Part shown: positions 5,540-19,270 of the stretch, in pieces | How positions within the stretch are numbered: the stretch's first letter is position 1 | Layout: each line of letters begins with the position of its first letter | IMG/VR virus record: IMGVR_UViG_2660238446_000011 | Direction: 5' to 3' (one strand) | Source: a virus | Lineage: Duplodnaviria; Heunggongvirae; Uroviricota; Caudoviricetes | Length of the DNA stretch: 32,846 bases | Program-made: the position numbers and the translations under genes | The notes under the pieces: generated by a model | Databases searched by the model: none | What the model was told of the DNA's origin: nothing | Seen by the model: only the letters and a program-made list of their open reading frames with translations

Positions 5540-6232
5540 TTAATTATGTCTCTTAAGGGTTTGCGACTGACTGATTAAGACCTTTCCAAAGACCATGAAT
5601 CGGTGTTCGTTTTCGCTAGTAATTCCCCATTCACGGTAAATCTGGTTATCAGAAATCACCAGCAGTTTGTCAGGAATCATTTGAAGTCTTTTAACGTATA
5701 TTTTGTCATCAAAACCAAAGACATATATACCATCACCATCAAACTGATTGATGCTGACATCAACGAAGATGAGATCTCCTGGCTCAATGGTTGGACACAT
5801 ACTGTCCCCACGAACGTTGATAACTTTGATGTGATTGGCTGGTCGTCCGCCGAACATTGATACAGCATTATCAGTTCTGTATTCGATGGCATGAATCACA
5901 TCAATGACATCACCGCCCTGGATAAGGCCATTTCCCGCACTGGCACTGATATCCAGCATTTCAATACGGAACACATCCTTCACCTGCGCAACATCCTCAT
6001 TATTACTGTTTTTATATACAGTATTACTTTTGTGGGCAGAGGTAAAGAGATCAGCAATATCAACACCTAAGCTCTTGGCAATATTACTCAGTGTTTGTTC
6101 GGTAAATTGTTTTTGCTTACCCGTTTCTAAGCGCGAGATGTTCGCCGCATCTACTCCTATTGCTTCAGCGAGATCGGCGATTTTCATGTTCTTCGCTTGG
6201 CGAAGTTGTCTGACTCGGTTTCCTATGTTCAT
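5540..6232 (-). CDS. CI/C2-type prophage repressor (N-terminal HTH, C-terminal LexA-like S24 peptidase domain)
   Basis: N-terminus IADLAEAIGVDAANISRLETGK is an XRE-type HTH; C-terminus has a GDSM Ser motif and KRL Lys typical of self-cleaving S24 peptidases; divergent from the cro-like gene. Confidence 0.9.
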   Translation of the reverse strand: MNIGNRVRQLRQAKNMKIADLAEAIGVDAANISRLETGKQKQFTEQTLSNIAKSLGVDIADLFTSAHKSNTVYKNSNNEDVAQVKDVFRIEMLDISASAGNGLIQGGDVIDVIHAIEYRTDNAVSMFGGRPANHIKVINVRGDSMCPTIEPGDLIFVDVSINQFDGDGIYVFGFDDKIYVKRLQMIPDKLLVISDNQIYREWGITSENEHRFMVFGKVLISQSQTLKRHN

Positions 6233-6244
6233 GCGTTTATTACA

Positions 6245-6329
6245 TTTCTTTATTGCGTGATAAGCAAATCAACTTGCGCAAAATAATTGCGTGAAATAAC
6301 ATGCATAACGCGCAATATTTGGAGGACAT
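6245..6329. promoter_or_regulatory. OR operator / PR-PRM region with repeated TTGCG / CGCAA half-sites
   Basis: TTGCGTGATAAGCAA at 6253..6267 plus further TTGCG and CGCAA half-sites to about 6314, between divergent repressor and cro-like genes; GGAGG RBS before the 6330 ATG. Confidence 0.6.
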
Positions 6330-6590
6330 ATGCAATCACCATTACGAAATGTGCGTAAGGCGCATGGTTTCACTTTGCAGCATGTTGCTGCGGGTGTTCA
6401 AGTCAATCCAGCGACGTTGAGTCGTATTGAGAGGCTGGAGCAGATTCCATCTATCGAGCTTGCAGAACGTTTAGCCAATTTTTTTAAGGGTGAAGTCAGC
6501 GAAATGCAGATTCTTTATCCGGCACGTTTTCAATCTAGCCAAAACCAGAATGGGTTTAAACCACAGGAACAGGAGGTGAACCGTGGGTAA
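6330..6590 (+). CDS. Cro-like HTH regulator (86 aa)
   Basis: Small ORF divergent from the repressor with HTH segment LQHVAAGVQVNPATLSRIE. Confidence 0.75.
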   Translation: MQSPLRNVRKAHGFTLQHVAAGVQVNPATLSRIERLEQIPSIELAERLANFFKGEVSEMQILYPARFQSSQNQNGFKPQEQEVNRG

Positions 6591-7134
6591 GCATCACTGG
6601 AAAGTAGAAAAACAGCCTGAGTGGTACGTGAAAGCTGTCAGAAAAACTATCGCAGCGTTGCCGGGGGGGTACGCTGAAGCTGCTGACTGGCTGGATGTAA
6701 CAGAGAACGCATTATTTAACCGCCTTCGTGCCGATGGCGATCAGATTTTCCCGCTGGGATGGGCAATGATTTTGCAACGTGCTGGTGGAACTCACTTCAT
6801 TGCTGACGCTGTGGCGCAGTCTGCAAATGGCGTCTTTGTGTCTCTTCCTGACGTCGAGGATGTGGACAACGCCGATATTAACCAGCGCCTGCTGGAAGTC
6901 ATTGAACAGATCGGCAGTTATTCAAAACAGATTCGTTCAGCAATTGAAGACGGTGTAGTGGAACCGCATGAGAAGACAGCAATTAACGACGAGCTGTACC
7001 TCTCAATTTCGAAGCTGCAGGAGCATGCAGCACTGGTCTACAAAATTTTTTGCATTTCAGAAAGTAATGACGCCCGCGAGTGTGCAGCTCCGGGCGCCGT
7101 GGCGTGTCGTGACTGTGGAGAAACTAACGCATGA
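6583..7134 (+). CDS. putative CII-like / YdaT-type regulatory protein (183 aa)
   Basis: Position immediately after cro with overlapping stop/start; family assignment from recollection only. Confidence 0.45.
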
Positions 7135-7478: not shown

Positions 7479-8420
7479 ATGAGCACTAAATTAACCGGCT
7501 ATGTATGGGATGGTTGCGCTGCATCAGGCATGAAATTATCCAGCGTGGCAATTATGGCCCGCCTGGCTGATTTCAGTAATGACGAAGGTGTGTGCTGGCC
7601 ATCAATTGAAACCATTGCCCGCCAGATTGGCGCGGGGATGAGTACCGTCAGAACGGCTATCGCACGGCTGGAAGCAGAAGGCTGGTTAACGCGTAAGGCG
7701 CGTCGCCAGGGTAACCGCAATGCGTCGAATGTTTATCAGCTTAACGTTGCGAAGCTTCAGGCAGCGGCATTTTCTCAACTGTCAGATTCTGACCCGTCAA
7801 AATCTGACGCATCAAAATCTGACCCGTCAAAATTTGATGCGTCGAAATCTGGCAAAAAAGCGGGTTTTCACCCGTCAGAATCTGGCGGGGATCCGTCAGT
7901 AAAATCAAAACATGATCCGTCAGATAAAAAAACTTCTCGTCCGGACGCTTCGCAACCGGACACGCAGACGGATGAACAGGATTTTTTAACTCGCCATCCT
8001 GATGCGGTTGTATTCAGCCCTAAAAAGCGCCAGTGGGGAACGCAGGATGATTTGACCTGCGCACAGTGGCTCTGGAAAAAAATCATCGCCCTGTACGAGC
8101 AGGCCGCCGAATGTGACGGCGAGGTGGTTCGTCCCAAAGAACCGAACTGGACAGCCTGGGCAAACGAAATTCGCCTGATGTGTGTGCAGGATGGTCGTAC
8201 TCACAAACAAATCTGCGAGATGTACAGCCGCGTCAGCCGCGATCCGTTCTGGTGCCGTAACGTGCTCAGCCCGTCGAAGCTGCGGGAAAAATGGGATGAG
8301 CTTTCCCTGCGCTTATCGCCGTCCGTAAGCACGTACACCGAAAAACGCGAAGACCCGTACTTCAAATCCAGTTACGACAACGTGGACTACAGCCAGATCC
8401 CGGCAGGATTCAGGGGGTGA
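7479..8420 (+). CDS. replication initiator, lambda O-like (winged-helix N-terminus, internal ori iterons)
   Basis: N-terminal winged-helix-like region (WPSIETIARQIGAGMSTVRTAIARLEAEGWL); central low-complexity repeat DPSKSDASKSDPSKFDASKS encoded by DNA iterons; position after cro/cII. Confidence 0.75.
   Translation: MSTKLTGYVWDGCAASGMKLSSVAIMARLADFSNDEGVCWPSIETIARQIGAGMSTVRTAIARLEAEGWLTRKARRQGNRNASNVYQLNVAKLQAAAFSQLSDSDPSKSDASKSDPSKFDASKSGKKAGFHPSESGGDPSVKSKHDPSDKKTSRPDASQPDTQTDEQDFLTRHPDAVVFSPKKRQWGTQDDLTCAQWLWKKIIALYEQAAECDGEVVRPKEPNWTAWANEIRLMCVQDGRTHKQICEMYSRVSRDPFWCRNVLSPSKLREKWDELSLRLSPSVSTYTEKREDPYFKSSYDNVDYSQIPAGFRG
7781..7935. repeat. ori-like iterons inside the replication initiator gene, followed by an A-rich tract
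   Basis: Repeated units containing ATCTGAC / CCGTCA(A/G)AAT(C/T)TG at about 7794, 7824, 7872, 7893 and 7916, then GATAAAAAAAC. Confidence 0.6.
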
Positions 8421-8422
8421 TC

Positions 8423-8911
8423 ATGAGTCTGTTAAATGACGTTCAGAAATTCATTGAAGCCCATCCGGGGTGTACTTCCGGAGACATTGCGGATGCTTTT
8501 GCTGGTTACTCACGGCAGCGCGTTCTGCAGTCAGCAAGCAAGTTACGTCAGAGTGGGCGTGTGGCTCACCGTTGTGAAGGAGATACACGCAGACATTTCC
8601 CGCGCCTGACTGAGAGAGCGCAGGAACCGGAACCACAACCAGTTCGAGAAACCAGACCTGTGCGCAATTTCTATGTCGGCACTAACGATCCACGGGTGAT
8701 TTTGTGCCTGACCCGCCAGGCTGAAGAACTGGAGTCCAGGGGCTTATACCGTCGTGCTGCAACCGTGTGGATGGCGGCATTCCGTGAAAGCCACTCCCAG
8801 CCAGAACGAAACAATTTTCTGGCGCGTCGTGAGCGGTGCTTACGGAAAAGCAGCAAGCGCGCTGCATCGGGTGAAGAGTGGTATCTGTCAGGGAATTACG
8901 TGGGGGCTTAA
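8423..8911 (+). CDS. hypothetical protein, possible winged-helix DNA-binding N-terminus
   Basis: ORF track starts at a GTG (8417); first ATG at 8423; overlaps neighbours in operon fashion; no firm family. Confidence 0.5.
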   Translation: MSLLNDVQKFIEAHPGCTSGDIADAFAGYSRQRVLQSASKLRQSGRVAHRCEGDTRRHFPRLTERAQEPEPQPVRETRPVRNFYVGTNDPRVILCLTRQAEELESRGLYRRAATVWMAAFRESHSQPERNNFLARRERCLRKSSKRAASGEEWYLSGNYVGA

Positions 8912-9564
8912 TGAGTAATAAATATTGCCAGGCGCTGGTGGAACTGCGGAACAAACCAGCCCATGAACTGAAGGAAGTGGGCGATCAGTGGCGCACGCCG
9001 GACAACATTTTCTGGGGAATTAACACCCTGTTTGGCCCGTTTGTTCTGGATCTGTTTACTGACGGTGATAACGCCAAATGTGCCGCGTATTACACGGCGG
9101 AAGATAACGCGCTGGCGCATGACTGGTCAGAACGTCTTGCGGAGCTTAAAGGTGCTGCCTTTGGTAATCCCCCATACAGCCGCGCCAGTCAGCATGAGGG
9201 GCAATACATCACCGGCATGCGTTACATCATGAAACATGCCAGTGCCATGCGTGATAAGGGCGGGCGCTATGTTTTCCTGATCAAAGCTGCCACCAGCGAA
9301 GTGTGGTGGCCGGAAGATGCGGACCATATTGCTTTTATTCGCGGGCGTATTGGTTTTGAACTGCCTGCCTGGTTTATCCCGAAGGATGAGAAGCAGGTGC
9401 CGACAGGCGCTTTCTTCGCTGGTGCTATTGCTGTTTTCGACAAGACCTGGAAGGGACCGGCAATCAGCTACATCGGGCGCGATGAACTTGAGGCATGTGG
9501 TGAAGCCTTTCTGGTGCAGGTTCGCCAGCAGGCGGAAAAACTGGTCAGGGAGATGGCGGCATGA
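8911..9564 (+). CDS. phage Dam-like N6-adenine DNA methyltransferase
   Basis: Catalytic NPPY motif (AFGNPPYS); start ATG overlaps the preceding stop (TAATG); typical nin-region phage MTase. Confidence 0.75.
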   Translation: MSNKYCQALVELRNKPAHELKEVGDQWRTPDNIFWGINTLFGPFVLDLFTDGDNAKCAAYYTAEDNALAHDWSERLAELKGAAFGNPPYSRASQHEGQYITGMRYIMKHASAMRDKGGRYVFLIKAATSEVWWPEDADHIAFIRGRIGFELPAWFIPKDEKQVPTGAFFAGAIAVFDKTWKGPAISYIGRDELEACGEAFLVQVRQQAEKLVREMAA

Positions 9565-9887
9565 CGACGTTAACTCAATGCCAGCAGCAGGTGCTGGATA
9601 TGCTGATTTCTTACCAGAAAGAGCGTGGCTTTCCGCCAACCAATCAGGAGGTGGCAACCATGCTGGGATACCGTTCAGTGAATGCAGCGGTAGAGCATCT
9701 TCGTGCACTGGAGAAAAAAGGCGTCATCACGATAAAGCGTGGCGTGGCCCGGGGGATAACGCTTCATACCGCGGTGAAGGACGACGACAGCGAGGCGGTC
9801 GGGATTATCCGCGCACTGCTTGCCGGTGAGGAAAACGCCAGGCTGCGTGCAGCCCACTGGTTACATGAGAGAGGCCTGAAAGTATGA
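9561..9887 (+). CDS. LexA N-terminal-domain-like DNA-binding protein (108 aa, no peptidase domain)
   Basis: LTQCQQQVLDMLISYQKERGFPPTNQEVATMLGYRSVNAAVEHLRALEKKGVI closely parallels the LexA winged-helix domain as recalled. Confidence 0.65.
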   Translation: MTTLTQCQQQVLDMLISYQKERGFPPTNQEVATMLGYRSVNAAVEHLRALEKKGVITIKRGVARGITLHTAVKDDDSEAVGIIRALLAGEENARLRAAHWLHERGLKV

Positions 9888-10273
9888 AGCTGATCTTGCC
9901 TTTCCCGCCCAGCGTGAACACGTACTGGCGACACCCCAACAAAGGGGCGTTTGTAGGTAAAAGCCTGATAAGCGAGGCGGGGCGAAAATTCCAGAGCGCG
10001 GCGTGCGCAGCAATAGTTGAGCAGTTACGTCGTCTGCCGAAACCAACGTCGGCACCTGCTTCAGTGGAGATCGTGTTGTTTCCTCCGGATAACCGGATCC
10101 GCGATCTGGACAACTATAACAAGGCGCTGTTTGACGCCCTGACCCACGCGGGGGTGTGGGAAGACGACAGCCAGGTGAAAAGAATGCTGGTGGAGTGGGG
10201 GCCGGTTATCCCGGAAGGGAAGGTCGAGATCACTATCAGTAAGTACGAGAAACCGGCGGGTGCAGCCGCCTGA
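9884..10273 (+). CDS. rusA: Holliday junction resolvase RusA
   Basis: LPFPPSVNTYWRH and RDLDNYNKALFDALTHAGVWEDDSQV match conserved RusA blocks ([39 protein letters not shown]) as recalled. Confidence 0.85.
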   Translation: MKLILPFPPSVNTYWRHPNKGAFVGKSLISEAGRKFQSAACAAIVEQLRRLPKPTSAPASVEIVLFPPDNRIRDLDNYNKALFDALTHAGVWEDDSQVKRMLVEWGPVIPEGKVEITISKYEKPAGAAA

Positions 10274-10292
10274 TTAAGAGGAGAAACGAAGT

Positions 10293-11090
10293 ATGAATAA
10301 TCTGATGGTCATTGATGGTATTGAAGTTCGTCGTGATGCTTATGGTCGTTACAGCCTGAACGATCTGCACAGGGCTGCCGGTTCTCTGGATAAGCATAAG
10401 CCTGCATTCTGGCTCCGCAATGAGCAAACTGAACGTTTAATAAGCGAGTTGCAGATTTGCAACTCGGTCAATATAGAGCCAGTTAACGTTATTCGTGGCG
10501 GAAATAACCAGGGGACGTATGTCTGCAAAGAACTGGTGTATGCCTATGCAATGTGGATCAGCCCGTCATTCCATCTGAAGGTGATCCGTACTTTCGACAT
10601 GGTAACCAGCGCACCTGAAAAATTATCCGGACAGGCTGCTGACAAGATGCAGGCTGGCGTGATTCTGCTGGACTTTATGCGCCGGGAGTTAAATCTGTCT
10701 AACTCTTCAGTGCTTGGAGCCTGTCAGAAACTTCAGGAGGCTGTTGGCTTACCGAATCTGGCACCGCGCTATGCCATTGATGCTCCTGCTGATGCACACG
10801 ATGGCTCAAGTCGCCCGACACTGTCACTGAGTGCACTGCTGAAACAGTATGGTATCCGCCTGACGGCTAATCAGGCATATCACCAGATGGCGAAGCTGGG
10901 GATCGTTGAACAACGCGAACGATACAGCCGTACCGCGATTAACAACATCAAAAAATTCTGGTCGCTGACGGCGAAAGGCTGCATGTTCGGCAAGAACATC
11001 ACCAGTCCTGCAAATCCGCGCGAGACGCAGCCGCATTTCTTCGAATCCCGATTCCCTGAGCTGTTAAAGCTGCTCGATACCGTTCATTGA
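10293..11090 (+). CDS. KilA-N domain protein (265 aa)
   Basis: N-terminal region (IEVRRDAYGRYSLNDLHRAAG...KPAFWLRNEQTERLI) resembles the KilA-N/Bro-N fold signature; C-terminal domain unknown. Confidence 0.6.
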   Translation: MNNLMVIDGIEVRRDAYGRYSLNDLHRAAGSLDKHKPAFWLRNEQTERLISELQICNSVNIEPVNVIRGGNNQGTYVCKELVYAYAMWISPSFHLKVIRTFDMVTSAPEKLSGQAADKMQAGVILLDFMRRELNLSNSSVLGACQKLQEAVGLPNLAPRYAIDAPADAHDGSSRPTLSLSALLKQYGIRLTANQAYHQMAKLGIVEQRERYSRTAINNIKKFWSLTAKGCMFGKNITSPANPRETQPHFFESRFPELLKLLDTVH

Positions 11091-11091
11091 G

Positions 11092-12087
11092 GTGACCGTG
11101 AGAGCACTACTGACCCCTGAAATTGCCCCGCGTATGGGGATCGTATTGTTCAGACCAGGTTCAGAGCTGATGCCCCTGTTTATGCAGGGGCGTGTCCTGC
11201 TGGAGCCTGAGCCGGAACGTTATTCATCTTTCGCCAGTGGTGCTGTTCCGGCGGCATCACAACCGCTGGCGGATGATCCTGCCGTTCGGGCCGTGTTCCG
11301 CAATGAGGCAGTGATCCGTCGTGCTGGTGGCGTGGAATGTCTTGAAAGCTGGTTACTTCGTGAAAAAGGCTGCCAGTGGCCTCATTCCGACTGGCACAGC
11401 GAGAACATGACCACAATGCGTCACGCGCCGGGCGCAATCTGTCTGTGCTGGCACTGCGATAACCAGCTGCGCGATCAGTTCACGGAACGGCTGGAATCAA
11501 TGGCAACGGATAACTGTGCCCGCTGGGTGTTGTCTGTCGTGCGTCGGGATCTCGGTTTTGATGATAGTCACGTTGTGACAATGCCGGAACTGTGCTGGTG
11601 GCTGGTTCGTAATGATCTGGCGGATGCCTTACCTGAAAGTGCAGCCCGTAAGGCACTGAGATTACCGAAGCCTGTTGTGCCGTCTGTCACCCGGGAGAGT
11701 GACCTTGTTCCTTCGGTTCCGGCCACCAGCATCATCCAGAATAAAGCGAAAAAGGTGCTGGCGCTGAAAGTGGATCCGGAGTCGCCGGAGTCTTTTATGT
11801 TACGCCCAAAACGTCGCCGCTGGGTTAACGAAAAGTACACGCGCTGGGTTAAGACGCAGCCGTGTGCATGTTGTGGAAAGCCTGCTGATGATCCCCACCA
11901 CCTGATAGGCCACGGTCAGGGTGGAATAGGTACAAAAGCGCATGACCTCTTCGTGCTGCCTTTGTGCAGAAAGCATCACGACGAGCTGCATGCGGATACC
12001 GTGGCATTTGAAGAGAAGTATGGCTCCCAGTTGGAGCTGATATTTCGTTTTATCGATCGCGCGCTGGCAACTGGCGTGCTGGCCTGA
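11092..12087 (+). CDS. DUF968-like phage protein with C-terminal Cys/His HNH-like motif
   Basis: C-terminus CACCGKPADDPHHLIGHGQGGIGTKAHDLFVLPLCRKHHDELH; track start is a GTG, an ATG alternative lies at 11134; nin-region position. Confidence 0.55.
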   Translation: MTVRALLTPEIAPRMGIVLFRPGSELMPLFMQGRVLLEPEPERYSSFASGAVPAASQPLADDPAVRAVFRNEAVIRRAGGVECLESWLLREKGCQWPHSDWHSENMTTMRHAPGAICLCWHCDNQLRDQFTERLESMATDNCARWVLSVVRRDLGFDDSHVVTMPELCWWLVRNDLADALPESAARKALRLPKPVVPSVTRESDLVPSVPATSIIQNKAKKVLALKVDPESPESFMLRPKRRRWVNEKYTRWVKTQPCACCGKPADDPHHLIGHGQGGIGTKAHDLFVLPLCRKHHDELHADTVAFEEKYGSQLELIFRFIDRALATGVLA

Positions 12088-12104
12088 TTTTGTGGAGAAA
12101 GTTG

Positions 12105-12467
12105 ATGCGTGATATTCAGATGGTTCTGGATCGTTGGGGTGCATGGGCGGCGAGTGATAGTTCTGGGGTAGACTATTCGCCTATAGCTGCTGGGTTTAAA
12201 GGGCTTCTTCCCTATACAAGCAAAACACGTCAGGCTTGTTCAGATAGTGATGCATTAATTATTGAAGGTTGTCTTGCTCGTCTAAAGCAAAAAAGACCTG
12301 AAGAACACTCGCTTCTTGTTGCCCATTACCTATACGGTATCTCTAAAAGAAAGCTCGCTAAAGCTCGCAAAAAGGATGAGAAAATAATACGCATTGAGAT
12401 ACAGATGGCTGAGGGATTTATAGAAGGTTGTCTAGCTATTCTAAATGTTAGCTTAGATATGGATTAA
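12105..12467 (+). CDS. Q: late gene antiterminator Q (small Q family, QuuD-like)
   Basis: MRDIQMVLDRWGAWAA...AAGFKGL...IEGCLA parallels E. coli DLP12 QuuD as recalled; position after nin genes. Confidence 0.8.
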   Translation: MRDIQMVLDRWGAWAASDSSGVDYSPIAAGFKGLLPYTSKTRQACSDSDALIIEGCLARLKQKRPEEHSLLVAHYLYGISKRKLAKARKKDEKIIRIEIQMAEGFIEGCLAILNVSLDMD

Positions 12468-12479
12468 TATCTTGGTTTG

Positions 12480-12512
12480 GATAAGCAGGTGTGCTTGCAC
12501 CTGCTTAATATT
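12480..12512. terminator. hairpin between convergent Q and membrane-protein genes (AAGCAGGTG-tgcttg-CACCTGCTT), possible bidirectional terminator
   Basis: 9-bp perfect stem seen in sequence; flanking U-runs are weak on both strands. Confidence 0.4.
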
Positions 12513-12963
12513 ATATGTGGGGTAATATCCAGTTTATTTTCCTCCAGGTACTTGCAAATGAAACTATTGATACGATCAGGGTCGAGAAACCATATAAGGT
12601 TAGGGCGAAATCAAGTCTTACAGAGGTAATGGTGATTTTTTCATTTATAAACATTGCTATCAGCGGGAAAATACATGCTAATATTAAGGTAACTCCCGTA
12701 GATAACAGGTTATGAATAATTTTAGGTAAAATCTTGTTTTGTTTTAAAGCAAAAATAATTCCATCAGTACTTGAACTTGCAGAACTGAAGATGGAAATAG
12801 CGGCCAATACAAAACCAAACAAAATGCCTGCCACCGTAGATAACACTCCGGCTGTACTTAAGATATCAGAGTGAGCCATAGGCGCTAGGTATTTCCCAAG
12901 CACCCAAGCTAACAGCCCACTGATAACTATGTTAATTAAAACTTTAATAAGCATAATCATCAT
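12511..12963 (-). CDS. small integral membrane protein, four predicted TM helices (150 aa); RexB-like topology
   Basis: Four hydrophobic segments read from the translation (IKVLINIVISGLLAWVL; GVLSTVAGILFGFVLAAISIF; LLSTGVTLILACIFPLIAMFI; FALTLYGFSTLIVSIVSF); appears AT-rich by eye; second gene of a minus-strand pair. Confidence 0.65.
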   Translation of the reverse strand: MMIMLIKVLINIVISGLLAWVLGKYLAPMAHSDILSTAGVLSTVAGILFGFVLAAISIFSSASSSTDGIIFALKQNKILPKIIHNLLSTGVTLILACIFPLIAMFINEKITITSVRLDFALTLYGFSTLIVSIVSFASTWRKINWILPHI

Positions 12964-12977
12964 CCTTAAAAATAAGA

Positions 12978-13910
12978 TCAGATTTCATATTGCTTTAAAT
13001 ACTGACCATGTTCAATTTTAGCACTGATCAAGGCAGTACGCACATCTGTTTCTTTTGCGTAGCCATCTTTTGTGTTAATGTTTTTTTCACTGATCAGAAC
13101 TTGATTGAGAAGACTCCTTGAATGAGTATTTTTAGGTTCAGTGACATTAGCTTTACGTAATAAGTGAGGAACTTTTTCTATTAATTCCTTTATTCCACTT
13201 TTTACTTCATCACTGAGATAACCACGGATTAATTTACGTTGCGATGCTCTACCTCTAAGTGATAGTTTTAAATGCGAACCGCCCATCCCAGCCATCATTT
13301 CAATCATACTTTTGGAAAATGAATTCGAAAGGTCATAATCCGTTGCGCTAAAATTACGTGGAGCGGCGAGTGTAATTTCACAGCTACGTAAAGTGCTTCC
13401 TGTTTCAAGTAGTTCTTTTACACTTTCTTTTTTCCAAATTGCCTCAAACGCTACAGGTTTGTTTTCTTCAGAAAAATTGAATAAAAGAAATGCTAAATCG
13501 GAAACTTTAGGTCCTAAATGATTTTGAGATAAAACAAGAATGTCTTTCTTATAGTAGTAAATAAAATAAGTGCGTTCGACTATATATTTTTTATCATCTA
13601 ACGGAATATTGTGCTCATCCCAATTTTCATCACCAATATAAGGTAAGTGGAAACCATCACGAGAGCATGATAGATAACCAAAATAGAACTCCGCCTGTGC
13701 GTCTTTTTCTAAGAATACAATCTTTAATTTTTTCTTATCAAACTCAGCGGTATAAGAATTTTGCGAAGGTGTAACAATGGTTGTATACATGTTGTCAAAT
13801 GCAAGTTGTGCATTTGATGTAGTTGACTTCGTTCCTGAGGAGCTTTGGAAGAAACCGATACGCATTTTTTTTTGTTTAGTTAGTGGCGCGGAAGTGGCTG
13901 TAGTAGTCAT
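12978..13910 (-). CDS. hypothetical soluble protein (310 aa), first gene of a two-gene cargo operon; RexA-like by size and order only
   Basis: ORF with AAGGG 9 nt upstream of the ATG; 14-nt gap to the downstream membrane gene; Ser/Thr-rich N-terminus; no recognised motif. Confidence 0.6.
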   Translation of the reverse strand: MTTTATSAPLTKQKKMRIGFFQSSSGTKSTTSNAQLAFDNMYTTIVTPSQNSYTAEFDKKKLKIVFLEKDAQAEFYFGYLSCSRDGFHLPYIGDENWDEHNIPLDDKKYIVERTYFIYYYKKDILVLSQNHLGPKVSDLAFLLFNFSEENKPVAFEAIWKKESVKELLETGSTLRSCEITLAAPRNFSATDYDLSNSFSKSMIEMMAGMGGSHLKLSLRGRASQRKLIRGYLSDEVKSGIKELIEKVPHLLRKANVTEPKNTHSRSLLNQVLISEKNINTKDGYAKETDVRTALISAKIEHGQYLKQYEI

Positions 13911-14040
13911 TAAAATTACCCTTTATTATCCTTTTGAATCAATGGGTTGTGATTTGTTAATGATCCTAGGTTCGTTGCATATGCATAATCTATCAAAAAA
14001 AACTTACGCGGTCCGCATATTCTCGTTTACTGTGTTAAGA

Positions 14041-14090
14041 GTGGTTACTTCGCCACACAGCTTAAACCCGCCGTCGAGCGGTTTTTTTGT
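14041..14090 (+). promoter_or_regulatory. putative late leader (PR' / qut region) ending in a tR'-like intrinsic terminator
   Basis: GTGGTTACTTCGCC resembles the lambda 6S-RNA segment TTGGTCACTTCGAC as recalled; hairpin CCGCcgtcgaGCGG followed by TTTTTTT at about 14067..14088. Confidence 0.4.
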
Positions 14091-14210
14091 ACCTGTAAAC
14101 CTGGTGCAGTACAGTAAACACGCTGGTGGTCGTGAATACTGACTTTTTATCTTGCTGGCTTTTTAGACAAGAGTTATTGGTATGTCATGTTAACCAGAAG
14201 GGAAAAAGAC

Positions 14211-14414
14211 ATGCTAAAACAGCAAGATATGACAGAAACCGCCGCCGCAGTCCTTCATTTCTTACCTGCTGACAAGTGGGTAACGCCACGCATGATGACG
14301 AGAACTACCGGAGTAAGCGAAGCCCGGTGCCAGTTAATACTGACTCAGTTAGTTCTGGCGGGTCTGGCGAAGGATAACGGCGGGTACGGGAATAAATTCA
14401 GACGCTGCCAGTAA
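14211..14414 (+). CDS. small hypothetical protein (67 aa from MLKQQDM), possible winged-helix
   Basis: AGGGAAAAAG purine-rich stretch before the ATG at 14211; track ORF begins further upstream at 14187. Confidence 0.45.
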   Translation: MLKQQDMTETAAAVLHFLPADKWVTPRMMTRTTGVSEARCQLILTQLVLAGLAKDNGGYGNKFRRCQ

Positions 14415-14564
14415 TGGCGGTTTCCTGCTGTGAAAATGGGCGGCTGGTGGGTGTTGGTAGCACCTGCCAGCCATTCGCTCATGCTTACTGGTCACAAGCG
14501 AACCACGGCCCACTGCTTTAGCGCAAAAGCAGAGTGAGCCTACCAGAGTTACGCTTACTGATCC

Positions 14565-15617
14565 ATGAAAAATACTGTAAAAATAAACAGTGTTGATTTA
14601 ATCAACGCTGATTGCCTGCATTTTATTCAGTCCCTGCCTGATGATTCCATTGACCTGATTGTTACCGATCCGCCGTACTTCAAGGTGAAACCCAACGGCT
14701 GGGACAATCAGTGGAAAGGGGACGAAGATTACCTTAAGTGGCTGGACCACTGTCTGGCCCAGTTCTGGCGGGTGTTAAAACCTGCCGGAAGCCTTTACCT
14801 GTTCTGTGGGCATCGCCTGGCATCTGATATTGAGATCATGATGCGTGAACGTTTCAACGTGCTTAACCATATCATCTGGGCGAAGCCGTCCGGACGTTGG
14901 AATGGGTGTAATAAAGAAAGTCTGCGTGCATATTTTCCTGCCACAGAGCGCGTTCTGTTTGCTGAACATTACCAGGGGCCATATCGCGGCAAAAGTGACG
15001 GCTATGCGGCAAAAGAAAGGGAACTCAAACAGCACATAATGGCACCGCTGATTTCGTATTTCAGGGATGCTCGTGCCGAACTGGGTATAACGGCAAAACA
15101 AATTGCCGAAGCCACAGGTAAGAAAAATATGGTTTCCCACTGGTTTGGTGCCAGTCAGTGGCAGTTGCCGAATGAGGCTGACTATCGGAAGTTACAGGCA
15201 CTGTTTTCCCGTATAGCGGCAGAGAAGTTTCAGGAACAACAACTGGAACAACCACACCACCAGCTGGTGGCATCTTATGATTCACTGAATCGCAAATATT
15301 CTGAATTGCTGGATGAGTTTAAATCTCTCCGGCGCTATTTCTCCGTATCAGTCTCCGTGCCTTATACCGATGTCTGGATGCATAAACCCGTTCAGTTCTA
15401 CCCGGGTAAACATCCGTGTGAGAAACCGGCGGATATGCTCAGGCAAATAATCAATGCCAGTAGTCGACCTGGTGATCTGGTTGCTGATTTTTTTATGGGC
15501 TCCGGTTCCACAATAAAAGCAGCAATGGCGTTGGGGCGTCGGGCCTTAGGTGTTGAGCTTGAGTCAGAGCGGTTTAACCAGACAGTGAAAGAGATAAACG
15601 AGCTGGTGGGGAAATAA
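14565..15617 (+). CDS. DNA methyltransferase (N6-adenine or N4-cytosine), DPPY motif, no partner endonuclease in the window
   Basis: [11 protein letters not shown] catalytic motif near the N-terminus and a C-terminal AdoMet-type region ([13 protein letters not shown]) indicate a beta-class amino-MTase. Confidence 0.8.
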
Positions 15618-15684
15618 TCTGGTGGCCACGTCAGGTGGCCTTTTTATTTCCATTACACAGCACCCGCATCTGCGAGGTGGGGTT

Positions 15685-15900
15685 ATGAAATCCATGGATA
15701 AGTTAACAACGGGTGTCGCCTATGGCACCTCAGCAGGTAGTGCCGGGTACTGGTTTTTACAGTTGCTCGATAAAGTCACGCCCTCACAGTGGGCGGCATT
15801 AGGTGTGCTGGGTAGTCTGGTATTTGGCTTGCTGACGTATCTGACAAACCTTTATTTCAAGATTAAAGAAGACAAGCGTAAGGCGGCACGGGGAGAGTAA
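15685..15900 (+). CDS. class II holin (phage 21 S21 pinholin-like) with dual-start MKSM motif
   Basis: [62 protein letters not shown] nearly matches S21 as recalled; track ORF starts further upstream at 15622. Confidence 0.85.
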
Positions 15901-15904
15901 TTCA

Positions 15905-16255
15905 ATGACTCAAAACTATGAACTGATTGTGAAAGGGATCCGCAATTTTGAGAATAAAGTTACGGTAACTTTAGCGTTACGGGACAAAAAACGCTTTGCC
16001 GGTGAAATTTTTGACCTGGACATCTCGCTGGACCGTGTTGAAGGTGCCGCGCTGGAGTTTTATGAGGCAGCAGCCAGAAGGAGCATCAGACAGGTCTTCC
16101 TGGATGTTGCTGCCGGGTTATGTGAAGGGGATGAGCAGTCGCCGGAAAAGCGCCCCGTAATTTTAGAGGCGCAGAATGTATGGATAACCTACAAAGGAAA
16201 GCTACCGGGAAGAATTACTGGTTCTCTGAAGACTCCTCCGGAATCACAACCTTAA
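15905..16255 (+). CDS. hypothetical protein (116 aa) between holin and endolysin
   Basis: ORF packed inside the lysis cassette; no family recognised. Confidence 0.5.
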   Translation: MTQNYELIVKGIRNFENKVTVTLALRDKKRFAGEIFDLDISLDRVEGAALEFYEAAARRSIRQVFLDVAAGLCEGDEQSPEKRPVILEAQNVWITYKGKLPGRITGSLKTPPESQP

Positions 16256-16318
16256 GTCACTGACCGGAACAGATAAACCTGTCCGTGGGCAGAAACCGAT
16301 AAATCCTGATAAATATCC

Positions 16319-16852
16319 ATGAACGCAAAAATCAGATACGGCCTGTCGGCTGCCGTTCTGGCACTGATTGCCGTCGGTGCGCCCGCGCCTGATATTCTCG
16401 ACCAGTTTCTGGATGAAAAAGAAGGTAACCACACAACGGCATACCGCGATGGGTCCGGCATCTGGACCATCTGTCGGGGTGCCACGATGGTGGATGGAAA
16501 ACCCGTTTTTCCCGGTATGAAACTGTCGAAGGAAAAATGCGACCAGGTCAACGCCATTGAGCGTGATAAGGCGCTGACATGGGTGGAGCGCAATATTAAA
16601 GTACCACTGACTGAACCACAGAAAGCGGGTATCGCCTCATTTTGTCCCTATAACATTGGCCCAGGTAAGTGTTTTCCGTCGACATTTTATAAGCGGCTGA
16701 ATGCTGGTGATCGAAAAGGCGCCTGCGAGGCGATTCGCTGGTGGATTAAGGATGGTGGCAGAGACTGCCGTATTCGTTCCAATAGCTGCTTTGGGCAAGT
16801 TTCGCGTCGGGACCAAGAAAGTGTGCTGGCGTGCTGGGGGATAGACCAGTGA
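16319..16852 (+). CDS. SAR endolysin (T4-lysozyme-type muramidase with N-terminal signal-anchor-release domain)
   Basis: N-terminal Gly/Ala-rich weakly hydrophobic segment ([16 protein letters not shown]) followed by an E...D...T catalytic region ([20 protein letters not shown]); pairs with a pinholin as in phage 21. Confidence 0.85.
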
Positions 16853-16857
16853 ATAAC

Positions 16858-17370
16858 ATGTTTGCTAATGCTTGGTTGAAAGTTGCCACGGTTTCGGCTC
16901 TCCTCATTGCCTCATTTGTTGCAGGGAGTGTGTGGACGGAACGAGCATGGGAAAAGAAATGGGCGGATCGTAATAGTGAAGAATCCTCTCAGGCTGTGAA
17001 CGCTCAGATAGCTGCTCGTATGATTGAACAAGGGCGAGTGATCGCTCGTGATGAGGCTGTTAAAAATGCACAAGAACAGGCTGCAAAAGCGGCTGCGAAT
17101 GTTGCTGGCCTGTCTGCCACTGTTAACCAGCTGCGCACCGAAGCAACAAAACTTACCGTCCGCTTGGACGCTGCAAAGCACACCTCAGGTCTTGCCGTTG
17201 CCGTCGGAAGCAAAACAACCGCCACCAACGCCGCGATGCTTGCCGACATGCTCGGAAGTATTGCAGAAGAAGCTAGATACTATGCTGGGCGAGCTGATGA
17301 AAGTTACTTGGCTGGAATGACATGTGAACACATTTACGGCTCAGTGAGGGACTCAAGTAGTGTTAAATAG
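16858..17370 (+). CDS. Rz-like inner-membrane spanin (i-spanin)
   Basis: N-terminal TM segment ([18 protein letters not shown]) followed by an Ala/Gln-rich coiled-coil-like region; Rz1 reading frame embedded; track start 16831 overlaps the endolysin. Confidence 0.75.
17066..17320 (+). CDS. Rz1-like outer-membrane lipoprotein spanin (o-spanin), embedded in the +1 frame of Rz
   Basis: Basic n-region, hydrophobic core and lipobox LLTSC, then a proline-rich mature region ([12 protein letters not shown]...[10 protein letters not shown]); entirely inside the Rz gene. Confidence 0.7.
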
Positions 17371-17558
17371 CTGGTATGATGATGTTGAGAAGGCGGCACA
17401 GCAGGAGCTGTAATCGACGAGTGCTAATCTAGCACAATTGAGTTCACAAATTGTCTACTTTTGCTATATTGCAACCGATGCCAACAGCCTTTTTTGAGCA
17501 AAAATCATAAATGCTATCGTGTTGGCAGTTTTTTTCTTTGACGACACGGAATGATTTT

Positions 17559-17981
17559 ATGTCAGAAGTAGCTGTTGAACTTGAAGAGGATTCTTGGCCT
17601 GACTTTTTCCCGGTTGGAGTACCGCCGAAATCAGCCGTCCCTGCTGAGGGCGAGTTTTTCCGTTTGGTAAGGTCTAATCCACCAACCCCTGCATGTTTCC
17701 TCTCTACACATGAAGAGTATCCGCAGCGGCACAAAAAGTATCGTGGGGAAGCACTTCAGTGTGTCTATGGAACATCATTCTTTTCAGAATCGCGCGGGGC
17801 TACGGATGCAAAAGCTAAATTTCCTGCAGCTCTTGGTCATCGACTCGTTGCTAGTGGTCAGGTCACCCCCGTTTTCGGAGTAATGAAAAAAACATTTGCC
17901 GATCCAGCGCACTACACAATTTGGCTTAAGCGTAATTGTGCTATTCATGAACATTTTCACTGTATAGGAGAAGGCGTATGA
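17559..17981 (+). CDS. hypothetical protein (about 140 aa) with C-terminal Cys/His cluster; first gene of a two-gene cargo module
   Basis: Start at MSEVAVELEED (track ORF begins at 17511); C-terminal CAIHEHFHC cluster; stop overlaps the next start (ATGA). Confidence 0.55.
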   Translation: MSEVAVELEEDSWPDFFPVGVPPKSAVPAEGEFFRLVRSNPPTPACFLSTHEEYPQRHKKYRGEALQCVYGTSFFSESRGATDAKAKFPAALGHRLVASGQVTPVFGVMKKTFADPAHYTIWLKRNCAIHEHFHCIGEGV

Positions 17982-19270
17982 GTAACGTTTTTCTACCTAA
18001 TACAATGATGGGCACTCTATGTTACAAAAGAGTTTATGAGTTCTTCGAAGAGCCTCGCTTCTTTTCAGTTGAAAATGAAGTTAGTACACTTTTTATCGTT
18101 TACTGGATTGGTGAGGATGATGAATGTGATAGTTGGTTTATCATACCAATTTCTCCAGGGCGATTAGAGTTGATTGAAAGAAAAAGAATATGTATCCGTG
18201 ATGCTTTGATTAATCAGGAGCAAAACTTTTTCTATGAAGCCCATATACCATACGATCGTACAGGCAAAGTGACTTGGCTGAGTAAAAACTTGGTTGATAT
18301 ATTTGAAATACCTTTGCCTGTTTCTGAACTATATATAAGTTCGGTAGTTCCAGTAATGCCAAATGGTAAACTAGGCGAGGCTATTACTTACTCAACTCAT
18401 GAGATCCATTTAGAAAAAAGCTCAAAGAAAAGTGCAAAAAATTTGGTTTTAAGTCATGTGTCAAACGTATGCGACAGATTCAGCGATCTTTATGACAGAA
18501 TGCTGGAGATGGCAAAGTGCAAAGATAAATTACGTCCTGTCGATGCGCGGCCTGGTTCCTTTATCATTTCTTTTAAAGCTGAGAAATTACATTCCTTTGA
18601 AGACACTTTTAAAGAATTAAGCAGGCTGATAGAACTTAGAGCTGATATTATTCCTTTTGTTTTCGAAAAGGGTATTGATGTTCCAGCTTTGACAGATCTC
18701 TTACAATCCATAGTTGAAACCGGAACGAATATGGAACTCAAAAGCAACCAGACAGGTGAATTAGCTTTTGTTATTACAAAAGCTGGTGCTGAGTTCTATT
18801 TAAAAAAATTATCACGTCTTTCTACCTCATTGGTTGGAGGGCATCAAATACCTCAAGCAGATGTCCTCGAGACAGTTTATAAATTAGTGGAAATTGTTTG
18901 GAGTGGCGAACCACTTACTCCTATTAATACTGGTTTGCAAGATAGACATATCTACTATTATAAGCATGCAGCTAAAGTTTTGGGATTACTTGATAGCTTT
19001 GGTAATGTCACAACGTCTGGTCAACAACTCGTACAAAGTGATGAGATGACTAGACATAAAATTGCAGCGAGAAAATTTGAAGTGAGTCATGTGGGATGGG
19101 CTTGGATAAATTGGGCCAGTGTTGAACATTTATCCCAAATTGATCCTGACAGCGCTTTAGACTTCCTATTGGAGCAATGCCACTCTTTAAGTCGTGATAC
19201 TATTGAACGACGTGCTACAACTATTAAACACTGGTGCCGTGAATTGAAAAATTATTATACACCTCTGTAA
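17978..19270 (+). CDS. hypothetical protein (430 aa), unknown function; second gene of the cargo module
   Basis: Long ORF that appears AT-rich by eye; translationally coupled to the upstream ORF; followed by an intrinsic terminator; no recognised catalytic motif, but two R-x(5-6)-H patterns near the C-terminus (RKFEVSH, RRATTIKH). Confidence 0.65.
   Translation: MSNVFLPNTMMGTLCYKRVYEFFEEPRFFSVENEVSTLFIVYWIGEDDECDSWFIIPISPGRLELIERKRICIRDALINQEQNFFYEAHIPYDRTGKVTWLSKNLVDIFEIPLPVSELYISSVVPVMPNGKLGEAITYSTHEIHLEKSSKKSAKNLVLSHVSNVCDRFSDLYDRMLEMAKCKDKLRPVDARPGSFIISFKAEKLHSFEDTFKELSRLIELRADIIPFVFEKGIDVPALTDLLQSIVETGTNMELKSNQTGELAFVITKAGAEFYLKKLSRLSTSLVGGHQIPQADVLETVYKLVEIVWSGEPLTPINTGLQDRHIYYYKHAAKVLGLLDSFGNVTTSGQQLVQSDEMTRHKIAARKFEVSHVGWAWINWASVEHLSQIDPDSALDFLLEQCHSLSRDTIERRATTIKHWCRELKNYYTPL

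What the first reader, a model, noticed from the sequence alone, without database searches (positions are those of the whole stretch)
8911..15617. Two methyltransferases without partner endonucleases (Dam-like NPPY at 8911..9564; DPPY amino-MTase at 14565..15617)
Both carry clear catalytic motifs and neither has an adjacent restriction endonuclease candidate. The second sits between the late-leader terminator and the holin, the slot used for toxin cargo in Stx phages, so it would be expressed strongly during lytic growth. Two different orphan MTases suggest layered protection of the phage genome against host restriction. The small upstream ORF (14211..14414) might be a regulator.
Basis: partly seen in the sequence, partly recalled or inferred. 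Interest (0 to 1): 0.4.

Follow-up and report, generated by a model that had tools for sequence, protein, structure and literature searches.

The report
Two known orphan phage DNA methyltransferases
This E. coli lambdoid prophage carries two common, already catalogued DNA adenine methyltransferases with no restriction partner: an early Dam-family enzyme and a late enzyme about 80% identical to M.EcoGII, which methylates every adenine, so the finding is real but ordinary.

Summary
MTase1 (8911-9564) belongs to the phage Dam family (PF05869, TIGR01712) and has an NPPY motif. MTase2 (14565-15617) is a beta-class PF01555 enzyme with DPPY and FxGxG motifs.

Neither is new. MTase2 is 100% identical to the "putative DNA methylase" of phage cdtI. 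It is about 80% identical over its full length to M.EcoGII, the characterised non-specific adenine methyltransferase. It is 89% identical to a reconstructed ancestor that is also non-specific. Close DNA matches occur in 1265 (MTase2) and 2120 (MTase1) of 5426 complete E. coli genomes.

No restriction endonuclease is nearby. The only uncharacterised neighbour is a low-GC, minus-strand pair (DUF6731 plus a 4-TM protein). It folds like lambda RexA/RexB and occurs with or without MTase2.

MTase1 is translationally coupled inside the delayed-early operon. MTase2 lies downstream of the late promoter, mapped here by homology to the Stx2 phage VT2-Sakai, and upstream of the holin. It follows a conserved winged-helix ORF, terminator-like hairpins and a very conserved 130-nt leader.

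The most likely role is self-methylation of progeny DNA against restriction.

The parts
8911..9564 (+). MTase1: phage Dam-family N6-adenine DNA methyltransferase, 217 aa, NPPY at aa 86-89. A single-gene cassette in the delayed-early operon.
   Evidence: PF05869, E 9.7e-46. TIGR01712, 255.6 bits against cutoff 97. Motif located. 100% identical in Stx2c phages and 99% identical to cdtI dam. The start overlaps the stop of the PerC-like gene (TAATG) and the stop overlaps the next start (ATGA). Absent as a clean indel at ATGA in strain NS-NP030.
12090..12467 (+). Antiterminator Q (PF06530 type). Needed for read-through into the late operon that holds MTase2.
   Evidence: PF06530, E 3.7e-52.
12511..12963 (-). 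150-aa membrane protein with 4 TM segments and RexB-like topology. Second gene of a low-GC cargo cassette; not part of the MTase function.
   Evidence: TM segments at 1-19, 40-58, 86-104 and 117-135, against lambda RexB at 8-26, 42-60, 84-102 and 116-134. No sequence similarity to RexB. GC is 35%.
12978..13910 (-). DUF6731 protein, 310 aa, with a RexA-like fold. Tested as the only possible endonuclease candidate; it is not one.
14004..14040 (+). Candidate late promoter pR': -35 TTACGC at 14004-14009, -10 TACTGT at 14028-14033, start site about 14036-14040.
   Evidence: The block GTTAAGAGTGGTTAC...CCCGCC..GCGG-T7 is shared by phages that carry PF06530-type Q genes. In VT2-Sakai it lies directly after Q. 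There, the published 258-nt PR'-to-tR' distance (PMC7547250) places the start site at the equivalent of window 14036-14040. This is an inference by homology; the generic promoter scan found nothing significant here.
14068..14091 (+).
   Evidence: Found in the terminator scan. Its position is conserved across related phages, with stem variants that keep pairing. It is weak in this phage: -5.9 kcal/mol, z -0.45. In VT2-Sakai the equivalent hairpin lies inside the 258-nt StxS RNA, so it is probably leaky (PMC7547250).
14211..14414 (+). Small ORF, 67 aa: a stand-alone winged-helix protein, always paired with the MTase.
   Evidence: AF2 pLDDT 87.5 with H-H-H-beta-beta topology. Foldseek matches to winged-helix domains: Zalpha at TM 0.84, also TrmBL2, IclR and NsrR, all with E > 0.001. 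It sits upstream of a 350-353-aa PF01555 MTase in every context read.
14404..14423 (+). Hairpin overlapping the stop codon of the small ORF, followed by a short T run. A terminator-like gate before the MTase leader.
   Evidence: Nearly all of 39 distinct homologous sequences fold a GC-rich hairpin of about 5 to 11 bp at this place. The stem sequences differ between them, and many are followed by T5-T8. The T run is weak (TTT) in this window.
14436..14564 (+). Highly conserved, structured, non-coding leader upstream of MTase2. It contains a Chi site at 14443-14450, and there is no Shine-Dalgarno sequence before the MTase ATG.
   Evidence: 88% mean column identity over 9 phages, against about 52% aa identity for the adjacent small ORF. 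An exact-match core was found in 30 species-level Enterobacterales genomes. Frame-breaking 1-nt indels argue against coding. MFE -61.6 kcal/mol, z -2.64. A few compensatory pairs. No Rfam match.
14565..15617 (+). MTase2: beta-class N6-adenine methyltransferase of the M.EcoGII family, 350 aa, with DPPY at aa 35-38 and FMGSG at aa 310-314.
   Evidence: PF01555, E 2.2e-42. 80-81% identical to M.EcoGII over its full length and 77% in the TRD (aa 160-237). 89% identical to Anc291 and 69% to SUPREM. 100% identical to the cdtI 'putative DNA methylase'.
15624..15646 (+). Intrinsic terminator-like hairpin (GGCCAC-GTCAG-GTGGCC, then T5) between MTase2 and the holin.
   Evidence: Terminator scan. -12.2 kcal/mol, z -2.75.
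15685..15900 (+). Holin (EssD-like, 71 aa from the ATG at 15685). Marks the start of the lysis cassette downstream of MTase2.
   Evidence: ORF listing. Annotated as holin S / EssD in PhiR40_1 and NS-NP030.

Best explanation
These are two independent, solitary phage DNA adenine methyltransferases expressed at different times in the lytic cycle.

MTase1 is a phage Dam-family enzyme. It is translationally coupled inside the delayed-early operon (replication gene, PerC-like gene, MTase1, LexA-like gene, RusA, and so on to Q). It therefore acts while the phage DNA replicates. By family precedent it most likely methylates GATC. That is inferred, not shown.

[quoted passage not shown] It lies downstream of the late promoter, behind a leaky leader hairpin, a winged-helix ORF, a second terminator-like hairpin and a conserved structured leader with no Shine-Dalgarno sequence. 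It should therefore be made only when Q-modified RNA polymerase reads through, just before packaging.

Progeny genomes would leave the cell heavily N6-methylated and so be resistant to many adenine-sensitive restriction systems in the next host. The lysogen avoids toxic genome-wide methylation.

What is shown here: gene identity, motifs, family membership, gene order, conservation, and the absence of a nuclease partner. What is inferred: the specificities, the timing of expression, and the anti-restriction benefit.
For: - Family and motifs.
- MTase2 against enzymes with measured non-specific activity: 80% identity to M.EcoGII and 77% in the target recognition domain, 89% to Anc291, 69% to SUPREM. 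All three methylate DNA and RNA without a motif (PMC5778455; PMC11551740).
- Published properties of M.EcoGII: encoded on a prophage, silent in the lysogen, toxic when expressed, and it renders DNA insensitive to many REases (PMC5778455; PMC12707154).
- Late-operon position. The conserved pR'/leader block is homologous to the one directly after Q in VT2-Sakai, where the published 258-nt StxS length places the start site (PMC7547250). The same ORF-MTase pair precedes the tRNAs and stx in phiP27 and Stx2_EH2246. It follows three different Q families and precedes different holins.
- Gating elements.
- MTase1 operon coupling and clean indel.
- No partner nuclease.
Against: - No methylation data exist for this phage.
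- The M.EcoGII sequence used was read by machine from a PDF supplement and contains a few probable reading errors, so the identity figure is approximate.
- MTase1 is only 31% identical to M.EcoVT2Dam, the member of its Pfam family listed as GATC-specific, so GATC specificity is weakly supported.
- The leader hairpin at 14068-14091 and the hairpin after the small ORF are weak terminators in this phage. The generic promoter scan was not above background.
- M.EcoGII also methylates RNA in vitro, so DNA may not be the only substrate.
- To my knowledge, and in the papers read here, no one has shown that an M.EcoGII-type enzyme protects its own phage in vivo.
Confidence: 0.72

Rival explanations
1. 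One or both enzymes serve the phage's own life cycle rather than anti-restriction. For example, GATC methylation by MTase1 could control replication, packaging, mismatch-repair avoidance or induction frequency, as P1 Dmt does for pac sites.
For: MTase1 sits in the replication/recombination part of the early operon and is not late. Reviews list such roles for phage orphan MTases (PMC12707154). [quoted passage not shown] GATC is neither avoided nor enriched in the window: 137 observed against 127 expected.
Against: MTase1 is dispensable as a clean presence/absence cassette in otherwise near-identical prophages. That argues against an essential life-cycle role. No regulatory GATC cluster was looked for or seen.
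Confidence: 0.15
2. MTase2, alone or together with the adjacent winged-helix protein, acts mainly on RNA (host or phage transcripts, or rRNA) during late infection. DNA protection would then be secondary.
For: M.EcoGII and its reconstructed ancestors methylate RNA in vitro (PMC5778455; PMC11551740). Another prophage 'DNA adenine methyltransferase' was reported to become a 16S rRNA methyltransferase when bound to a small partner protein (PMC10810198). The winged-helix ORF is strictly linked to the MTase. Its best structural matches include nucleic-acid-binding winged-helix domains such as Zalpha and SelB.
Against: M.EcoGII's activity on DNA is about 90 times its activity on RNA (V0 11.12 against 0.12; PMC11551740 Suppl. 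Table S3). M.EcoGII is fully active on DNA without any partner (PMC5778455). The rRNA enzyme belongs to a different family, MT-A70.
Confidence: 0.08
3. One of the MTases is the modification half of a restriction-modification system whose endonuclease is a neighbouring gene. Candidates are the DUF6731/TM cassette, the DUF968-HNH protein at 11092-12087, and the pair at 17511-19270.
For: DUF968 has a weak HNH-like match: HNHc_6 at E 6e-6, just under its cutoff, and phrog_96 'HNH endonuclease'. Two cassettes of unknown function flank MTase2.
Confidence: 0.03
4. The genes are decaying prophage remnants with no activity.
For: M.EcoGI/II homologues give no methylation signal in lysogens (PMC4659465, PMC6602927). 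Truncated copies exist: L008 at 176 aa, and 35-50-aa remnants in 933W-type phages.
Against: Both ORFs here are full length with intact motifs. MTase2 is 75-93% identical across many genera and identical to that of the sequenced phage cdtI. The cloned homologue is highly active (PMC5778455). The window also holds intact lysis and terminase genes.
Confidence: 0.02

Closest known systems
[quoted passage not shown] 2018, PMC5778455)
   Same: Beta-class order of motifs: DPPY, then TRD, then FxGxG. Nearly the same length (350 against 349 aa). 80% identity overall and 77% in the TRD. Encoded on a lambdoid prophage, solitary, and placed where expression is expected only on induction.
   Different: About 20% sequence divergence, and activity is untested for this allele. 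The published work does not describe the linked winged-helix ORF, the terminator-like hairpins or the conserved leader seen here.
Phage cdtI, SfV, mEp460 and PhiR40_1: the 'dam' plus 'DNA methylase' gene pair
   Same: Same two genes in the same places. MTase2 is 100% and MTase1 99% identical to the cdtI genes. The whole 8400-16300 region is 96-98% identical at the DNA level over 65-75% of its length.
   Different: The cargo between Q and the late promoter differs. This window has the DUF6731/4-TM cassette, which only 17 of 5426 complete E. coli genomes share together with the rest of 12400-15700.
M.EcoVT2Dam (VT2-Sakai orf32), a member of the phage Dam family PF05869/TIGR01712
   Same: Same Pfam family and a small single-domain enzyme with an NPPY motif. 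Located in the early-right (nin-like) region of a lambdoid phage. M.EcoVT2Dam is listed as GATC-specific (PMC6602927).
   Different: Only 31% identity over 144 aa. The window enzyme is 42 aa longer at the C-terminus and sits between different neighbours.
Mom of phage Mu, and the promiscuous Hia5/Hin1523 MTases of Mu-like prophages (PMC3299994)
   Same: Works in the same way: a late, tightly silenced, toxic, broad-specificity adenine modification that protects progeny DNA from many restriction enzymes.
   Different: Unrelated proteins. According to PMC5778455, Hia5 and Hin1523 are alpha-class enzymes. Mom makes a different adduct and is controlled by Dam/OxyR and Com rather than by Q antitermination.

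Membership tests
M.EcoGII family (non-specific beta-class N6-adenine MTases of enterobacterial prophages) | Beta-class architecture: N-terminal DPPY, central TRD, C-terminal FxGxG, within PF01555 | tested here: met
   PF01555 at E 2.2e-42 over aa 29-341. DPPY at aa 35-38 and FMGSG at aa 310-314.
M.EcoGII family (non-specific beta-class N6-adenine MTases of enterobacterial prophages) | Full-length close sequence relationship to M.EcoGII, including the target recognition domain | tested here: met
   80-81% identity overall, 77% in aa 160-237, only 2 gaps. 89% to Anc291 and 69% to SUPREM. Caveat: the reference sequence comes from a machine-read supplement.
M.EcoGII family (non-specific beta-class N6-adenine MTases of enterobacterial prophages) | Methylates adenine in any sequence context | not testable with these tools
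   Needs SMRT/nanopore sequencing or LC-MS of DNA exposed to the enzyme. Inferred only from homology to three enzymes with measured non-specific activity (PMC5778455, PMC11551740).
M.EcoGII family (non-specific beta-class N6-adenine MTases of enterobacterial prophages) | Prophage-encoded and silent in the lysogen | tested here: inconclusive
   Prophage location is met. Silence is inferred from the position downstream of pR' and the terminator-like hairpins. No expression data are available.
Phage Dam family (PF05869 / TIGR01712) | Scores above the curated cutoffs of both models | tested here: met
   PF05869 at 156 bits (cutoff 28.1). TIGR01712 equivalog at 255.6 bits (cutoff 97.05).
Phage Dam family (PF05869 / TIGR01712) | Catalytic (D/N)PPY motif | tested here: met
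   NPPY at aa 86-89. It aligns with NPPY of VT2-Sakai orf32.
Phage Dam family (PF05869 / TIGR01712) | GATC specificity | not testable with these tools
   Only 31% identical to M.EcoVT2Dam, which is listed as GATC-specific (PMC6602927). No close characterised relative was found, and no solved structure by sequence search.
Type II restriction-modification system | A cognate restriction endonuclease gene adjacent to the methyltransferase | tested here: not met
   Every ORF from 7479 to 19270 was scanned. The unknown neighbour has a RexA fold. Both MTases occur independently of all their neighbours.
RexAB-type phage exclusion system (for the 12511-13910 cassette) | RexA fold (split globular domain plus dimerisation domain, RdgC-like) | tested here: met
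   [not shown]
RexAB-type phage exclusion system (for the 12511-13910 cassette) | Sequence homology to RexA and RexB | tested here: not met
   hhalign probability 0.4% for RexA. BLASTP E 0.9 for RexB. No PADLOC hit.
RexAB-type phage exclusion system (for the 12511-13910 cassette) | Downstream partner of about 145 aa with four TM helices | tested here: met
   150 aa, with four hydrophobic segments at nearly the same positions as in lambda RexB. Same A-then-B gene order.
RexAB-type phage exclusion system (for the 12511-13910 cassette) | Excludes superinfecting phage | not testable with these tools
   Needs plaque assays with the cloned cassette.

The most novel reading that the evidence does not exclude
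The MTase may not be a lone gene but the output of a conserved, unstudied control module. The module has four parts: a stand-alone winged-helix protein, a terminator-like hairpin over its stop codon, an almost invariant 130-nt structured leader, and an M.EcoGII-type MTase with no Shine-Dalgarno sequence.

In this reading the winged-helix protein or the leader RNA actively times, limits or redirects a toxic non-specific methyltransferase. It might do so by sensing nucleic acid or m6A status, or by acting as a specificity or substrate partner. That would go beyond simple Q read-through.
Probability: 0.25. Interest if true: 0.45.

Novelty: already known. Interest (0 to 1): 0.22.

Why it matters
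As stated, the finding adds little. Solitary Dam-family and M.EcoGII-family methyltransferases are annotated in a quarter to a third of complete E. coli genomes. The 'methylate on the way out' idea is in current reviews.

There are two practical points. First, a methylome experiment on this phage should expect near-global m6A rather than a motif. Second, such phage DNA would be a target for m6A-dependent (Type IV-like) defences.

What could matter is the surroundings. M.EcoGII is a widely used chromatin-footprinting reagent, yet the papers read here describe neither its natural control (winged-helix ORF, hairpins, conserved leader) nor a test of its benefit to the phage. In addition, the site between Q and the late promoter is a cargo hot spot. 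In this phage it holds what looks like a distant RexAB-like exclusion pair.

Tried and rejected
1. Fang et al. 2012 (PMC3879109), the primary source for M.EcoGI to M.EcoGIX, is not held. Specificities were taken from later papers.
2. I suspected that M.EcoGV (GATC) was the homologue of MTase1. This was rejected: M.EcoGV is described as highly similar to an MT-A70-family enzyme (PMC10810198).
3. The Murray 2018 supplement is not held. The M.EcoGII sequence came from the machine-read SUPREM Table S1, which has probable errors such as 'NHHIW' and 'GRRRAIG'.
4. The PDB sequence search gave nothing for MTase1. For MTase2 it gave only distant beta-class enzymes.
5. The generic sigma-70 scan found no significant promoter excess: 9 found against 8.6 expected. 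pR' was placed by homology instead.
6. I could not decide which hairpin is the effective tR' in this phage.
7. The Rfam search of 12400-15800 gave no match at E<=1.
8. A 33-codon ORF inside the 150-nt spacer was considered. It was rejected because 1-nt indels break the frame in several homologues.
9. Covariation in the leader is sparse because the sequence is almost invariant, so the structure is not proven.
10. Sequence comparisons of the DUF6731 and TM proteins with RexA and RexB were negative. The link rests on fold and topology only.
11. I looked for a GATC bias in the window and found none.


Full report
**Observation.** The window is a lambdoid E. coli prophage. The region 8400-16300 is 96-98% identical, over 65-75% of its length, to phages PhiR40_1, mEp460, cdtI and SfV.

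- MTase1 (8911-9564, 217 aa) matches PF05869 'Dam' at E 9.7e-46. It passes the NCBIfam equivalog TIGR01712 'phage N-6-adenine-methyltransferase' with 255.6 bits against a cutoff of 97. NPPY is at residues 86-89.
- MTase2 (14565-15617, 350 aa) matches PF01555 at E 2.2e-42. DPPY is at residues 35-38 and FMGSG at 310-314, which is the beta-class motif order.

**What MTase2 is.** It is 100% identical to the 'putative DNA methylase' of phage cdtI, and 80-85% identical to genes in Stx2c phages, phiP27 and Stx2_EH2246.

The M.EcoGII protein sequence is printed in the supplement of the SUPREM paper (PMC11551740). It was read by machine and has a few likely errors. Against that sequence:

- MTase2 is 80-81% identical over its full length with two gaps.
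- It is 89% identical to the reconstructed ancestor Anc291 and 69% to Anc284/SUPREM.

M.EcoGII methylates adenine in any context. Its gene lies on a prophage, is not expressed in the lysogen, and slows growth when expressed. Methylated DNA becomes insensitive to many restriction enzymes (PMC5778455). The ancestors all kept DNA and RNA methylation activity, and for M.EcoGII, Anc291 and SUPREM no discernible motif was seen (PMC11551740). The window enzyme therefore lies inside a set of sequences bracketed by enzymes measured to be non-specific. By inference, it most likely has no target motif.

**What MTase1 is.** It is 100% identical to a gene in Stx2c-converting phages and 99% identical to cdtI 'dam'. 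In the same Pfam family, M.EcoVT2Dam is listed as GATC-specific (PMC6602927). I take it to be VT2-Sakai orf32, which is only 31% identical to MTase1. I first suspected that M.EcoGV was the counterpart, but that enzyme is described as highly similar to an MT-A70-family protein (PMC10810198). GATC specificity for MTase1 is therefore a family-level guess. GATC is not biased in the window: 137 observed against 127 expected.

**How common they are.** Close DNA matches to MTase2 occur in 1265 of 5426 complete E. coli genomes, and matches to MTase1 in 2120. MTase1 homologues are annotated 'phage N-6-adenine-methyltransferase' across Enterobacterales. Methylome papers already list such prophage enzymes as silent orphans (PMC4659465, PMC6602927).

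**Is there a partner endonuclease?** I scanned all ORFs from 7479 to 19270 against Pfam, NCBIfam, PHROGs and PADLOC. The neighbours are:

- a replication-initiator-like HTH protein, a PerC-like protein and a LexA-DNA-binding-domain protein;
- RusA, a KilA-N protein, DUF968 with a weak HNH-like match, and Q;
- the lysis genes;
- two low-GC cargo cassettes.

DUF968 is a standard gene of this region. It is present where MTase1 is absent and MTase2 is truncated (L008).

The cassette at 12511-13910 (minus strand, 35% GC) encodes a DUF6731 protein and a 150-aa membrane protein.

- The membrane protein has four hydrophobic segments at nearly the same positions as the four in RexB.
- Sequence comparisons with RexA and RexB are negative, and PADLOC does not recognise the pair.
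- The cassette sits directly after Q in other prophages that have no MTase2 (L009-L012). MTase2 occurs without it in others.

It is independent cargo, probably an exclusion system, and not a restriction enzyme. The pair at 17511-19270 weakly matches PD-T4-10 A and B. The refuting condition 'a cognate endonuclease lies nearby' is therefore not met.

**Expression context of MTase1.** Its ATG overlaps the stop of the PerC-like gene (TAATG), and its stop overlaps the next start (ATGA). In strain NS-NP030 the gene is missing precisely between those two ATGA junctions. It is a single-gene cassette inside the delayed-early operon.

**Expression context of MTase2.** Upstream of the small ORF lies the block GTTAAGAGTGGTTAC...CCCGCC-loop-GCGG-T7. 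It is shared by phages that carry PF06530-type Q genes. mEp460 has a longer Q gene and shares the sequence only from the hairpin onward.

The same block lies directly after Q in VT2-Sakai. The StxS study mapped the 3' end of the PR' leader RNA 258 nt downstream of PR' (PMC7547250). Counting back from the matching hairpin puts the start site at the equivalent of window 14036-14040, just after a TAnnnT hexamer (TACTGT, 14028-14033). MTase2 is therefore downstream of the late promoter. This is an inference by homology.

Three hairpins stand in the way:

1. 14068-14091. It is weak here, and its VT2-Sakai equivalent lies inside the 258-nt RNA, so it is probably leaky.
2. 14404-14423, over the stop codon of the small ORF. 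Nearly all of 39 distinct homologous sequences fold a hairpin there. The stems differ, and many are followed by T5-T8.
3. 15624-15646, between MTase2 and the holin (-12.2 kcal/mol, z -2.75).

This fits an enzyme that is silent in lysogens and made only by Q-modified polymerase.

**Relation to the Stx slot.** In phiP27 and Stx2_EH2246 the order is Q, small ORF, MTase, tRNAs, stx. In ArgO145 and VT2-Sakai only the last 35-50 codons of the MTase remain upstream of the tRNAs. The toxin genes therefore lie next to this MTase rather than replacing it.

**The small ORF and the leader.** The 67-aa product is predicted with pLDDT 87.5 as three helices plus a beta-hairpin. It superposes on winged-helix domains: Zalpha at TM 0.84, and also TrmBL2, IclR and NsrR, though all Foldseek E-values are above 0.001.

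It precedes a 350-353-aa PF01555 MTase in every context read. These contexts follow three different Q families and precede different holins, in E. coli, Salmonella and Kosakonia.

The 150 nt between the two genes are more conserved than the small ORF itself: 88% column identity against about 52% protein identity. An exact-match core was found in 30 species-level genomes of many Enterobacterales genera. In 28 of them the M.EcoGII-like gene follows at a fixed distance; the other two contigs end too early.

Frame-breaking single-base indels argue against a coding function. The RNA folds better than shuffles (z -2.64), and a few pairs show compensatory changes. The sequence is too invariant for a firm structural test. 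There is no Rfam match. The MTase start codon has no Shine-Dalgarno sequence. I regard this as an undescribed control region, but I did not establish how it works.

**Mechanism proposed.** MTase1 methylates replicating phage DNA early, probably at GATC. MTase2 is produced late under Q control and methylates most adenines of progeny DNA before packaging. The phage thereby escapes adenine-sensitive restriction in the next host, and the lysogen is spared. This is the published view for M.EcoGII and Mom-like functions (PMC5778455; PMC12707154). It has not been tested for any phage of this type in the papers I read.

**Verdict.** The points worth a note are the conserved control region upstream of MTase2 and the RexAB-like cargo after Q.

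Noticed in passing
[not shown]
   Followed up: partly
window 12468-14030; L001 5584-6207; L002 about 5967-6890; L004 2114-3475; L014 1464-3500; L016 1762-3500: The gap between Q and the late promoter is a cargo hot spot. Different prophages hold different genes there: the DUF6731/TM pair, a 148-aa minus-strand ORF, a 138-aa ORF, a GIY-YIG/T5orf172 protein (phiP27), an HEC-04-like AAA ATPase (PADLOC E 3.9e-47), or an unknown 308+182-aa pair.
   Followed up: partly
window 14404-14564: A hairpin over the stop codon of the winged-helix ORF, then a roughly 130-nt leader that is nearly invariant across many Enterobacterales genera. It is more conserved than the flanking small ORF, is not coding and has no Rfam match. 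It always lies upstream of an M.EcoGII-like gene that has no Shine-Dalgarno sequence.
   Followed up: partly
whole window; e.g. 14122-14129, 14443-14450, 15602-15609: The Chi sequence GCTGGTGG occurs 18 times against 1.5 expected, and 15 of the 18 are on the + strand. Two lie in the conserved late leader region. A 2025 paper on Chi-rich lambdoid phages (PMC12315714) came up in a search; I saw only its abstract.
   Followed up: partly
window 17511-19270 (+): A second low-GC (36-40%) two-gene cassette after the lysis genes: 156 aa plus 430 aa (DUF6575, with a weak DUF7226 match). They weakly match PD-T4-10 components A and B in that order (E 1.3e-5 and 2.8e-4). It is probably a defence system.
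   Followed up: partly
L007 (VT2-Sakai) 20170-20610 compared with window 14030-14095 and 15515-15590: 933W/VT2-Sakai-type Stx2 phages keep the same pR' leader block and a 35-50-codon remnant of the M.EcoGII-like gene just upstream of the tRNAs and stx. This suggests that the small ORF and most of the MTase were deleted in that lineage. The mapped tR' of the StxS RNA lies just upstream of the remnant.
   Followed up: partly
L011 9163-10709; L012 7169-9624 (Pectobacterium prophages): Related prophages carry the Dam-family gene next to a C5 cytosine methylase gene (PF00145) in the early operon, and a secreted-type Endonuclease_NS gene in the place of MTase2 before the holin.
   Followed up: no
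window 12482-12507: A strong 11-bp hairpin (-17 kcal/mol, z -3.9) lies between the convergent Q gene and the RexB-like gene, without a clear U tract on either strand.
   Followed up: no
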